Virus genome (UHGV): UHGV-0262291
Origin: a virus
DNA: 11,287 nt
Direction: 5' to 3' (one strand)
How positions within the stretch are numbered: position 1 is the stretch's first letter; the number at the start of each line of letters is the position of its first letter. A model generated the notes under the pieces. That model saw only the letters and a list, made by a program, of their open reading frames with translations, had not been told where the DNA came from and did not search any database. Shown here piece by piece: positions 648-1,907 of the stretch. A program made the position numbers and the translations under genes.

Positions 648-675
648 AAATAAAAAAGCCTTCACTGCGGAAGGC
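648..675 (-). terminator. Rho-independent terminator on the minus strand
   Basis: Hairpin GCCTTC-(6 nt loop)-GAAGGC at 658..675, followed on the minus strand by TTTTTTATTT (plus-strand A-run 651..657). Overlaps the stop codon of the 662..859 gene. Confidence 0.6.
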
Positions 676-859
676 GTCTGTAACAACCGAACTGATAGTC
701 TGCCAGACCCGCCATAACCAGCTGGGTCAGTATTAACTGGCAGCGTTCGCGTGAAAGGTAAGTATTCTGTGCAATCTCCCCGACTGTCGCCGGTTCGGTA
801 ACGCTTAATTCATTAAACACTACTCTGGCGGTTTCTGTCATATCCTGCTGTTTTAGCAT
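662..859 (-). CDS. Hypothetical small protein, possible helix-turn-helix; start uncertain
   Basis: ORF track gives 662..946 with a GTG start and no SD; the internal ATG at 859 (MLKQQDMTETARVVF...) has an AAGGG-type SD about 9 nt upstream. The segment TVGEIAQNTYLSRERCQLILTQL resembles a DNA-binding helix pair. Confidence 0.35.
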   Translation of the reverse strand: MLKQQDMTETARVVFNELSVTEPATVGEIAQNTYLSRERCQLILTQLVMAGLADYQFGCYRRLPQ

Positions 860-981
860 GTCTTTTTCCCTTTTCCGGTTAACGTGACACACCAATAACT
901 CTTGTCGAAAAAGCCAGCAAGCTGAAAGACAGGTATTCACCGCCACCAGCGCGTTTACTGTACTGACGCGATTTCAGTCAT

Positions 982-1009
982 AAAAAACCCGCCAGGCGGC
1001 GGGGTGTAA
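982..1009 (-). terminator. Rho-independent terminator on the minus strand (tR'-like, downstream of the Q-like gene)
   Basis: Hairpin CCCGCC-(4 nt loop)-GGCGGG at 988..1009, followed on the minus strand by TTTTTTAT (plus-strand A-run 982..987). Confidence 0.6.
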
Positions 1010-1052
1010 AAAATCTTCTAACGTCAGGCATAAAACGCCCATCGTTAGAGCA

Positions 1053-1080
1053 AATTTACCACAGATTCGGGAAAAATCAA
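1053..1080 (-). promoter_or_regulatory. Candidate late promoter (PR'-like) just downstream of the Q-like gene
   Basis: On the minus strand: -35 TTGATT (plus 1075..1080), 16-nt spacer, extended -10 TGgTAAATT (plus 1053..1061). It starts 6 nt after the Q-like stop codon and about 45-60 nt upstream of the 982..1009 terminator. Confidence 0.4.
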
Positions 1081-1085
1081 CAACA

Positions 1086-1907
1086 CTATCGCGTTACCCT
1101 CTTTAACTGCCGCTCCGCCCATGCCTCTTCAATGTCAAACCGAACCACCAACGTATCGTAAAAGCGTTTCACTGATTTTTTCCACGTATCAAGCGTGATA
1201 GCACTCGTCACTTTGCATATGGCATTAAATGCCTCCGTTGATGGTAGTCTTTCACAGCCACGACCACCACAACGCTGGCAGTCTCTGATAACAGGCATAC
1301 CACGTTTTACCGACTCTTCACGATGAATGGCGACACCACGCCCACGGCAATCCTTACAGGCGGTGGAAACCTCACCCTTTCCGCCACACTCCGGACAGGC
1401 AACTTTTACCACCTCCCTGACTTTTTTCCATTCTTCCCAGTAAGACGGATACACACCTTTCGTACACTTTGCCCATACCGGCGGCTTACCATCCGGATAC
1501 TGGACCTTGTTTGTAAAAACTACGCTTTCAATAAATTTTTCCCCATAGCAACAAGGGCACTGCTTTTTACTCGCTGCGCTGCGGGCATAATCCTCAAAAG
1601 CGTACGAAGCCATAATGCGCATCACTACCGGTTTTATTTCTGCCGGGAGTTTTCTTAACGCCGCCACGCGATCACACCGACTGAGTGCATATTCTGTCAG
1701 CAATTCTGTTGCCCGCTCTCTGTCATTCATACTAATGCCCATTTTCCCAAGGAACGCAGAAAACCCCATCTCAGCCCGATTCTGTGTCATGCCCTGCGCG
1801 GCCATCACATCAGTGATACTCAGCGCATCTTTCGACGTTGAGGCCGATGCATCAGTCAGGCCGGGGGATTTTGGGGAGTAGTATTTCGGTAAATCTTCCA
1901 GTTTCAT
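1086..1907 (-). CDS. Putative antitermination protein Q-like (zinc-binding CxxC motifs)
   Basis: 273-aa ORF with several CxxC/CxxCxGxG motifs (PCCYGEKF, ACPECGGKGE, CKDCRGRG, CQRCGGRG). It sits directly after rusA with an ATGA start/stop overlap and is followed by a promoter and intrinsic terminator, the Q-PR'-tR' arrangement. The family assignment was not checked by search. Confidence 0.5.
   Translation of the reverse strand: MKLEDLPKYYSPKSPGLTDASASTSKDALSITDVMAAQGMTQNRAEMGFSAFLGKMGISMNDRERATELLTEYALSRCDRVAALRKLPAEIKPVVMRIMASYAFEDYARSAASKKQCPCCYGEKFIESVVFTNKVQYPDGKPPVWAKCTKGVYPSYWEEWKKVREVVKVACPECGGKGEVSTACKDCRGRGVAIHREESVKRGMPVIRDCQRCGGRGCERLPSTEAFNAICKVTSAITLDTWKKSVKRFYDTLVVRFDIEEAWAERQLKRVTR

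What the first reader, a model, noticed from the sequence alone, without database searches (positions are those of the whole stretch)
648..1088. Q-like gene followed within 100 bp by an extended -10 promoter and terminator, then a second terminator about 330 bp further
This matches a Q / PR' / tR' module, with a very short predicted terminated transcript of roughly 45-65 nt. The first downstream gene (662..859) is not holin-like, and it is followed by a second strong terminator (648..675) before the truncated methyltransferase. Two terminators in series ahead of late-position genes suggest that these genes depend on antitermination, or that the late region has been rearranged.
Basis: partly seen in the sequence, partly recalled or inferred. 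Interest (0 to 1): 0.4.

Follow-up and report, generated by a model that had tools for sequence, protein, structure and literature searches.

The report
Prophage late-gene antitermination switch (Q, PR', tR')
This is the ordinary late-gene switch of a lambda-like E. coli prophage: an antiterminator gene Q, its promoter, a built-in pause signal and a terminator that stops transcripts after about 64 bases unless Q is made. It is real and well conserved, but of a textbook kind.

Summary
The 273-aa ORF (1086..1907) is a lambda-family Q antiterminator: Pfam PF03589, E 5e-51, full-length match to solved lambda Q, with a 68-aa zinc-motif insertion.

Five bases after its stop codon lies a PR'-type promoter. 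It has -35 TTGATT, a 16-bp spacer and an extended -10 (TGG-TAAATT). It is followed by AACGATGGG, identical to lambda's sigma-70 pause element at +1..+9. An intrinsic terminator follows (stem 1003..988, T6), so the predicted RNA is about 64 nt.

This layout recurs after diverse long-form Q genes (HK225, mEp237, phi80, SfV, ES18, K-12 Qin). The element itself occurs in 1674 of 5426 complete E. coli genomes.

The next gene (662..859) is a conserved 65-aa winged-helix protein, followed by a second terminator (675..648) and a 12-bp hairpin. The methyltransferase gene is cut by an IS421/IS186-type insertion.

In intact relatives the order is Q, this ORF, methylase, tRNAs (stx in Stx phages), esterase, lysis genes. 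So the order is native, not rearranged.

It is a new member of a known kind and of low interest. One side observation: the 5' end of Q-lambda-type late RNAs covaries with a downstream complement.

The parts
1086..1907 (-). Q antiterminator gene (273 aa), lambda-Q family, long-arm variant
   Evidence: Pfam PF03589: 171 bits against a cut-off of 26.7. phmmer to lambda Q (PDB 7ubm): residues 1-113 and 182-273 align to lambda residues 1-113 and 116-207, E 3.8e-39. A 68-aa insertion at residues 114-181 carries extra CxxC motifs. phrog_127 'anti-termination protein Q-like'.
1075..1080 (-). PR' -35 hexamer TTGATT, starting 5 nt after the Q stop codon
   Evidence: Read from the sequence. Aligns with the lambda PR' -35 region. 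Conserved in relatives whose Q is at least 90% identical.
1059..1074 (-). 16-nt spacer TTTCCCGAATCTGTGG; candidate Q-binding element
   Evidence: The block TTTCC(C/G)GAA.CTG is kept in HK225, mEp237, phiEt88 and IMG/VR relatives whose Q is only 50-68% identical, while the flanks differ. The phi80 record annotates its Q site at the equivalent place. Binding was not tested.
1053..1061 (-). Extended -10: TG (1061..1060), G, then TAAATT (1058..1053)
   Evidence: Read from the sequence. The hexamer TAAATT is the same as in lambda PR'.
1038..1046 (-). Sigma-70-dependent pause element AACGAT (+1..+6) plus GGG discriminator-like triplet
   Evidence: Identical to lambda PR' +1..+9. PMC4005639 states that AACGAT occupies +1 to +6 and is followed by GGG. 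Variants in relatives (AATGAT, AATAAT, AACAAT, AACTAT, AAAGAT, AATTAT) all keep A at position 2 and T at position 6.
982..1046 (-). Predicted terminated PR' transcript, about 64 nt (analogue of lambda 6S RNA)
   Evidence: Folds as a 5' stem-loop, a U-rich single strand and a terminator hairpin with U6. MFE -21.9 kcal/mol, z -2.5. No Rfam family matches.
982..1003 (-). tR' intrinsic terminator (stem 1003..988, loop GCCT, T6 at 987..982)
   Evidence: A terminator sits at +40..+70 in all long-Q relatives even where its sequence differs. It is also the mosaic junction between Q modules and downstream modules.
662..859 (-). Conserved 65-aa winged-helix protein gene (phrog_331; named 'TrmB family' by NCBI)
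   Evidence: 28 of 37 variable alignment columns fall at codon position 3. phrog_331, E 1.4e-37. AlphaFold pLDDT 92 with an H-H-H-strand-strand topology. Foldseek hits MarR/IclR winged-helix domains at TM 0.66-0.80.
648..675 (-). Second intrinsic terminator; its hairpin spans the stop codon of the 65-aa ORF
   Evidence: The stem is kept in 16 distinct relatives while the loop varies; 98.9% of cells are paired, with no two-sided changes.
604..634 (-). 12-bp G+C-rich hairpin GGCUGGUGGGUG-UUAGGGG-CACCCACCAGCC with no U tract
   Evidence: dG about -26 to -30 kcal/mol, z -3.7. Five pairs vary in relatives, and every change gives a G-U or U-G pair, which exists only in the late-sense RNA. Function unknown.
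137..511 (-). 5' fragment of an N6/N4 DNA methyltransferase gene (349 aa when intact)
   Evidence: PF01555, E 1e-16. Intact in relatives. Annotated as a pseudogene split by an IS in strain DLI.5a.
1..138 (.). End of an IS4-family IS421/IS186-type element that interrupts the methyltransferase gene
   Evidence: RefSeq annotation of the identical locus names an 'IS4-like element IS421 family transposase' lying between the two halves of the methylase gene. Relatives lacking the IS match only window 138..2400.

Best explanation
Window 982..1907 (minus strand) is the late-gene regulatory cassette of a lambdoid E. coli prophage of the ompW/Qin type.

Shown by sequence:
- The gene encodes a lambda-family Q protein.
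- A sigma-70 promoter (PR') starts 5 nt after its stop codon.
- The first nine transcribed bases, AACGATGGG, are lambda's sigma-dependent pause element.
- An intrinsic terminator (tR') follows at +44..+65.

Inferred from lambda:
- PR' fires constitutively. Without Q, RNA polymerase stops at tR' and releases an RNA of about 64 nt.
- When Q is made from the early operon, it binds its site between -35 and -10 while polymerase is held at about +16 by sigma bound to AACGAT.
- Q then loads onto the polymerase, with NusA, as an exit-channel nozzle and makes it terminator-resistant.
- The modified polymerase reads through tR', the 65-aa winged-helix gene, its terminator (675..648) and the stable hairpin (634..604). 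It continues through the methylase gene, the tRNA genes and several further terminators, and reaches the lysis and morphogenesis genes about 4.8 kb downstream.

In this copy an IS421/IS186-type element has split the methylase gene.
For: - Q identity: PF03589 E 5e-51; full-length alignment to lambda Q structures 7ubm and 4mo1. This includes the N-terminal residues that form the torus and the four zinc-ribbon cysteines.
- Promoter: GGTAAATTTG..AACGATGGG is shared with lambda PR'. AACGAT at +1..+6 followed by GGG is the experimentally defined pause element.
- Same architecture after Q in HK225, mEp237, phiEt88, ES18, phi80, SfV and K-12 Qin, with terminated RNAs of 59-75 nt. The phi80 record annotates pR', a Q site and two terminators.
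- Conservation: the 116-nt element is present in 1674 of 5426 complete E. coli genomes.
- Late genes lie downstream in intact relatives, with 8 late-sense terminator-like hairpins before the holin gene.
- In Stx2 phages stx occupies the same transcription unit.
Against: - No experiment bears on this particular Q or promoter. Promoter activity, pausing, Q binding and read-through are all inferred by homology.
- The generic promoter scan scores the site below its threshold, at 8 of 12.
- The Q-binding element is not identified. The GAAT shared with lambda sits 3 bp closer to the -10 than in lambda.
- The Q arm carries a 68-aa insertion of unknown effect.
- The host prophage is decaying. An IS sits in the methylase gene here, and in strain DLI.5a the lysis genes downstream of this copy are lost. 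The switch may therefore no longer control anything useful in this strain.
Confidence: 0.9

Rival explanations
1. The cassette is an inert relic. The sequence is a bona fide Q-PR'-tR' module by descent, but in this decaying prophage it no longer switches on any functional late operon.
For: An IS splits the methylase gene. In strain DLI.5a the esterase is truncated, holin and lysozyme are missing and the terminase is partial downstream of the identical module. Several close relatives carry uncompensated changes in the pause element.
Against: The Q ORF is intact and identical to a protein (WP_000762914.1) annotated in both genomes inspected. Promoter, pause element and terminator are unchanged relative to copies that sit in apparently complete prophages with lysis and terminase genes. 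Variants of the pause element keep the two critical -10 positions.
Confidence: 0.3
2. The 64-nt PR' RNA is itself the functional product: an Hfq-binding trans-acting small RNA made constitutively in lysogens, as StxS is in Stx phages. In this reading the terminator is more than a by-product of the switch.
For: The predicted fold has the usual sRNA layout: a 5' stem-loop, a U-rich single strand and a terminator with U6. There is precedent for PR'-derived regulatory RNA (PMC7547250). The element is very widespread.
Against: There is no sequence similarity to StxS and no Rfam family. The single-stranded segment that would serve as a seed is the most variable part among close relatives. The inner 5' stem is not maintained. 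Conservation of +1..+27 is explained equally well by pausing and escape constraints at the DNA level.
Confidence: 0.2
3. The two terminators simply end ordinary transcription units (the Q/early operon and a separately promoted small-ORF gene), and there is no Q-dependent promoter between them.
For: The generic promoter scan found no site. In Sakai Sp5 a terminator does lie directly after Q, upstream of PR'.
Against: The exact lambda pause element with the lambda -10 hexamer at lambda spacing lies between the Q stop and the terminator. This arrangement is conserved across Q proteins only 40-60% identical. No promoter-like site precedes the small ORF.
Confidence: 0.04

Closest known systems
Bacteriophage lambda Q - PR' - sigma-dependent pause element - tR' (6S RNA) cassette
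   Same: Homologous Q (PF03589; lambda residues 1-113 and 116-207 align). The -10 hexamer TAAATT is the same. AACGATGGG at +1..+9 is identical. The promoter lies directly after Q, with an intrinsic terminator before the late genes.
   Different: Q is 273 aa, with a 68-aa insertion carrying CxxC motifs at the start of the zinc-ribbon arm. The promoter has an extended -10 and a 16-bp spacer with different spacer sequence, so the Q site must differ. The terminated RNA is about 64 nt instead of 194 nt. The first late-side gene is a winged-helix ORF unrelated to lambda orf-64, and about 4.8 kb separates PR' from the holin gene.
Phage phi80 gene 17 (Q) / pR' / two downstream terminators, and other long-form Q cassettes (HK225, mEp237, ES18, SfV, K-12 Qin ydfT)
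   Same: Long-form Q with the same insertion (40-61% identity). Promoter, Q site and pause element lie in the same order. The first terminator gives a 59-75-nt RNA. phi80 has a second annotated terminator about 290 nt further on.
   Different: The spacer and Q-site sequences and the -35 differ between subgroups. phi80 has no annotated ORF between the two terminators, and its holin gene follows directly.
Late regions of Stx-converting phages (Stx2_EH1910, phiP27, Stx2a_WGPS2; 933W/Sp5 with the StxS sRNA)
   Same: From the tR' stem onward the sequence is 91-95% identical: the 65-aa ORF, second terminator, hairpin, methylase and tRNA genes. In those phages stx follows. Stx2_EH1910 also carries this same Q type.
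   Different: No stx gene accompanies this module in the non-Stx relatives inspected. Most of those phages carry unrelated Q genes and PR' regions upstream of the shared tR'. StxS (258 nt, processed to 74 nt) is not homologous to the 64-nt RNA predicted here.

Membership tests
Q-lambda family antitermination cassette | Q protein matches Pfam PF03589 above the gathering score | tested here: met
   171.2 bits against a cut-off of 26.7, E 5e-51. PMC9388147 assigns PF03589 to the Q-lambda family.
Q-lambda family antitermination cassette | Full-length homology to lambda Q: the N-terminal torus-forming segment, the helix-turn-helix body and the Cys4 zinc-ribbon arm | tested here: met
   Lambda residues 1-113 and 116-207 align. 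The four lambda cysteines are invariant in the 9-sequence alignment. An additional 68-aa insertion is present.
Q-lambda family antitermination cassette | Sigma-70 promoter immediately downstream of Q, in the same orientation | tested here: inconclusive
   TTGATT-16-TG.TAAATT is present and conserved. It falls below the generic scan threshold, and activity cannot be tested here.
Q-lambda family antitermination cassette | Sigma-dependent pause element (-10-like hexamer) in the initial transcribed region | tested here: met
   AACGAT-GGG lies 6 nt after the -10, identical to lambda +1..+9.
Q-lambda family antitermination cassette | Q-binding element between -35 and -10 | tested here: inconclusive
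   A spacer block, TTTCC(C/G)GAA.CTG, is conserved within the Q subgroup, and phi80 annotates an equivalent site. Binding cannot be tested.
Q-lambda family antitermination cassette | Intrinsic terminator between PR' and the late genes | tested here: met
   Stem 1003..988 plus T6. Its position is conserved in relatives.
Q-lambda family antitermination cassette | Lysis and morphogenesis genes downstream in the same orientation | tested here: met
   Met in colinear intact relatives, which carry holin, lysozyme, Rz and terminase. Not visible in the window itself, which ends in the IS.
Q-lambda family antitermination cassette | Q-dependent read-through of terminators | not testable with these tools
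   Requires in vitro transcription or reporter assays.
StxS-type PR'-derived regulatory sRNA | Sequence homology to StxS | tested here: not met
   The Sakai Sp5 PR'-tR' region shares no similarity with window 982..1046. Stx phages match the window only from the tR' stem onward.
StxS-type PR'-derived regulatory sRNA | Hfq binding and trans regulation | not testable with these tools
   Only a compatible predicted architecture is available.
Intrinsic (Rho-independent) terminator, second site 675..648 | G+C-rich hairpin directly followed by a U tract, in the sense of transcription | tested here: met
   A 6-bp stem with 4 G-C pairs, followed by TTTTTTATTT. Stems are conserved while the loop varies; 98.9% of cells are paired. 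Weaker in SfV.

The most novel reading that the evidence does not exclude
The short PR' RNA may not be a mere by-product. In 20 lineages of Q-lambda-type late promoters, the first 4-5 transcribed bases, which are also the sigma pause element, are always Watson-Crick complementary to a segment at about +14..+28. The pairs covary: AACGA/UCGUU, AAUGA/UCAUU, AACAG/CUGUU, AACAA/UUGUU.

A 5'-terminal hairpin may therefore be a selected feature of these transcripts. It could protect the late mRNA and the 64-nt RNA from 5'-end-dependent decay, or it could act in Q loading. Separately, the 64-nt RNA, present in about 31% of complete E. coli genomes, could be an Hfq-type regulator like StxS.
Probability: 0.25. 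Interest if true: 0.45.

Novelty: new member of a known kind. Interest (0 to 1): 0.15.

Why it matters
It mostly confirms textbook biology. The value is in the annotation: it places PR', the pause element, tR' and a second terminator for a Q subtype found in about a third of complete E. coli genomes and in some Stx2 phages. In those phages the same switch gates Shiga-toxin expression. RefSeq records label only the protein.

It also shows that tR' is the junction at which different Q modules are swapped onto a common downstream segment. That is relevant to why toxin output differs between Stx phages.

The 5'-hairpin covariation and the possible sRNA role of the 64-nt transcript can be tested cheaply with existing RNA-seq, dRNA-seq or Term-seq data.

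Tried and rejected
- Rfam, permissive scan of 1..2400: only a sub-threshold P26 match caused by the 604..634 hairpin. The gathering-threshold scan of the whole window found only sok.
- Generic sigma-70 scan: no site, so it could not support the promoter.
- Homology of the 64-nt RNA to StxS: none.
- Homology of the 65-aa ORF to lambda orf-64: none. NCBIfam: no family.
- Literature searches for the RNA sequence, for quuQ/ydfT and for a lambda 6S RNA stem-loop: nothing relevant.
- Covariation in the second terminator and the 12-bp hairpin: no two-sided compensatory changes, only one-sided G-U changes. The shuffle control is uninformative here.
- Inner 5' stem of the short RNA (GGGCGU/AUGCCU): not maintained among close relatives, so it is not claimed.
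- Second copy of TGTGGTAAAT at 648..639 as a methylase promoter: rejected as weak. The hexamer lacks the final T, and a 1-nt deletion disrupts it in phiP27, SfV and Stx2k.
- Rearrangement of the late region: rejected apart from the IS insertion.

Full report
**Observation.** All relevant features lie on the minus strand.
- ORF 1086..1907 encodes 273 aa.
- Five nucleotides after its TAG stop come TTGATT (1080..1075), a 16-nt spacer, TG (1061..1060) and TAAATT (1058..1053).
- Six nucleotides further on is AACGATGGG (1046..1038).
- A hairpin CCCGCC-GCCT-GGCGGG (1003..988) with T6 (987..982) follows. It is the best terminator-like site of the scan (about -12 kcal/mol).
- A second hairpin GCCTTC-CGCAGT-GAAGGC (675..658) with TTTTTTATTT lies 328 nt further on (about -9 kcal/mol).
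- The scan found 7 terminator-like sites in 2.4 kb against 2.4 +/- 1.7 in shuffles.
- TAAATT-N6-AACGAT occurs once exactly, against 0.08 expected even with one mismatch allowed.

The generic promoter scan did not flag the promoter, which scores 8 of 12 matches.

**The protein.**
- It matches Pfam PF03589 (Antiterm) at 171 bits, E 5e-51. PMC9388147 identifies this family as the Q-lambda family.
- It aligns to solved lambda Q (7ubm, 4mo1) over lambda residues 1-113 and 116-207. This includes the N-terminal segment that forms the exit-channel torus and the zinc-ribbon arm.
- Between these two parts lies a 68-aa insertion with additional CxxC and CxxCxGxG motifs. It gives a weak DnaJ central-domain match.
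- The long form is common. HK225, mEp237, phiEt88, ES18, phi80, SfV and K-12 Qin YdfT share it at 40-61% identity.

**The promoter and pause element.**
- Aligned with lambda, GGTAAATTTG....AACGATGGG is shared.
- By analogy, +1 is A1046 and the terminated RNA is 63-65 nt.
- The same order (-35, spacer, -10, 5-7 nt, AAC..T element, terminator at +40..+70) follows every long-form Q examined. Predicted RNAs are 59-75 nt.
- The phi80 GenBank record annotates pR', a Q site between -35 and -10, and two successive terminators about 290 nt apart.
- The spacer block TTTCC(C/G)GAA.CTG persists in relatives whose Q is only 50-68% identical, although the flanks differ. It is a candidate Q-binding element, but binding is untested.
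- Pause-element variants in close relatives (AATGAT, AATAAT, AACAAT, AACTAT, AAAGAT, AATTAT) all keep A2 and T6, the key -10 positions.
- The 116-nt element occurs in 1674 of 5426 complete E. coli genomes.

**Context.**
- Window 138..2400 is identical or nearly identical to many genomes. Window 1..~138 is the end of an IS421/IS186-type IS4-family element that splits the methyltransferase gene, as annotated in strain DLI.5a.
- In colinear intact prophages (strain 582; strain O17_K12a, integrated next to ompW) the order is Q, 65-aa ORF, 349-aa DNA methyltransferase, tRNA-Ile/Arg/Arg, (iraM), SASA/NanS-p-type esterase, holin, lysozyme, Rz, terminase.
- Between PR' and the holin gene there are eight late-sense terminator-like hairpins. 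Counting both strands of that stretch, the scan found 18 sites against 5.3 +/- 2.5 in shuffles.
- From the tR' stem onward the window is 91-95% identical to Stx2 phages, phiP27 and SfV. Most of these carry different Q genes, and in the Stx phages stx follows the tRNAs.
- Conversely, close relatives of this Q are followed after tR' by at least three different downstream segments.
- So tR' is a mosaic junction. The Q-to-methylase order is native, not a rearrangement.

**The downstream gene and elements.**
- ORF 662..859 is a real gene. 28 of 37 variable columns fall at codon position 3, and most differing codons are synonymous.
- It belongs to phrog_331, of unknown function, and is named a TrmB-family regulator by NCBI.
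- AlphaFold gives a confident three-helix, two-strand winged helix (pLDDT 92). It resembles MarR/IclR DNA-binding domains at TM 0.66-0.80.
- It is unrelated to lambda orf-64.
- The second terminator spans its stop codon. Across 16 distinct relatives the stems are kept while the loop varies: 98.9% of cells are paired, with no two-sided changes.
- Just downstream, a 12-bp hairpin (634..604, about -26 to -30 kcal/mol, no U tract) varies at five pairs. Every change gives a G-U or U-G pair, which preserves pairing only in the late-sense RNA. Its role is unknown; possibilities include a processing site or a stabiliser.

**Mechanism.** The steps are inferred from lambda.
1. PR' is constitutive, and transcripts end at tR' as an RNA of about 64 nt.
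2. Q, made from the early operon, binds its site while sigma-70 holds polymerase at the AACGAT-induced pause.
3. Q loads with NusA as a nozzle on the RNA exit channel.
4. The modified polymerase ignores tR', the second terminator and those further downstream.

Shown here are the sequence elements and their conservation. Not shown are promoter activity, pausing, Q binding and read-through.

**The short RNA.**
- It folds into a 5' stem-loop, a U-rich single strand and the terminator.
- It has no Rfam family and is not homologous to StxS, the PR'-derived sRNA of Stx phages.
- Its putative seed region is the most variable part among close relatives, which argues against a conserved trans-acting role.

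**Side observation.**
- In 20 lineage representatives of Q-lambda-type promoters, +1..+4/5 is always Watson-Crick complementary to a segment at about +14..+28. For the window's own RNA the relevant partner is CGUU at +24..+27, as in the predicted fold.
- The pairs covary: AACGA/UCGUU, AAUGA/UCAUU, AACAG/CUGUU, AACAA/UUGUU, AACA/UGUU.
- The sum of pairing runs is 88, against 73.4 +/- 3.2 when the 5' pentamers are swapped among lineages; 0 of 20000 swaps reach 88.
- The lineages are not independent, and recent variants of the pause element in close relatives are uncompensated.
- I found no report of this in the searchable library, but the older lambda 6S RNA literature is not held there.

**Verdict.** This is a genuine, typical Q-PR'-tR' cassette of the lambda-Q family, long-arm subgroup, in a decaying prophage. 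It is a new member of a known kind and of low interest.

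Noticed in passing
window 1046..1020 (minus strand), and loci L003, L006-L011, L017, L088-L320: The first 4-5 bases of Q-lambda-type late transcripts, which are also the sigma pause element, are always complementary to a segment at about +14..+28. The pairs covary (AACGA/UCGUU, AAUGA/UCAUU, AACAG/CUGUU, AACAA/UUGUU). A swap test gave 0 of 20000 permutations reaching the observed value. Recent pause-element variants in close relatives are not compensated.
   Followed up: partly
window 604..634 (minus strand): A 12-bp G+C-rich hairpin with no U tract lies just after the second terminator. 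Five pairs vary among relatives, and every change gives a G-U or U-G pair, valid only in the late-sense RNA. PhiR5_1 and Stx2k-type phages diverge at or just after it, so it also marks a mosaic boundary. Function unknown.
   Followed up: partly
window 982..1003, and loci L018-L097: tR' is a recombination junction. Stx2 phages, phiP27 and SfV share the sequence from the tR' stem onward, and most of them have unrelated Q/PR' modules upstream. Close relatives of this Q are followed after tR' by at least three different segments: the small ORF plus methylase, tRNA genes directly, or others.
   Followed up: partly
window 1363..1566 (codons 114-181 of Q): Compared with lambda Q, a 68-aa insertion with extra CxxC/CxxCxGxG motifs lies at the base of the zinc-ribbon arm that contacts the Q-binding element. 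It probably forms a second zinc centre. It is shared by many 'long' Q proteins, including phi80, ES18, SfV and K-12 YdfT.
   Followed up: partly
window 639..648 and 1054..1063 (minus strand): The 10-mer TGTGGTAAAT of the PR' extended -10 region recurs exactly right after the second terminator. As a promoter it looks weak (hexamer TAAATG), and a 1-nt deletion disrupts it in phiP27, SfV and Stx2k.
   Followed up: no
window 1..138 and 137..511: An IS4-family IS421/IS186-type element has inserted into the DNA methyltransferase gene. The same insertion is annotated in strains DLI.5a and AST46.
   Followed up: partly
whole window, junction around 2086..2400: No complete E. coli genome in the collection holds the window end to end. 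Strains DLI.5a and AST46 hold window 1..2400 in one prophage (100%). They hold window 2086..11287 in another prophage about 144 kb away (99.9%). The two pieces overlap in the rusA/DUF968 region. The window is thus either from a recombinant between two resident prophages or from a mis-joined assembly. Strain O17_K12a is colinear at 98.5% identity but lacks the IS.
   Followed up: partly
L016 1200..1325 (E. coli O157 Sakai prophage Sp5): In Sp5, the tR' of the Q933 module is followed by what reads as the 3' end of a methyltransferase ORF and then the tRNA genes. This suggests that the Q933-PR'-tR' module replaced Q plus the 5' part of a methylase gene there. The ORF was read by eye and not compared by tool.
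   Followed up: partly
window 662..859: The 65-aa winged-helix protein always sits directly upstream of the orphan DNA methyltransferase. Its best structural matches include the winged-helix N-terminal domains of SAM-dependent methyltransferases as well as MarR/IclR regulators. A controller role for the methylase is conceivable but untested.
   Followed up: partly
window 3782..4107 (minus strand): A hok/sok-type toxin-antitoxin locus. Rfam sok matches at 121.7 bits at 3932..4107, next to a 70-aa ORF at 3782..3994 that is annotated hokD in relatives.
   Followed up: no
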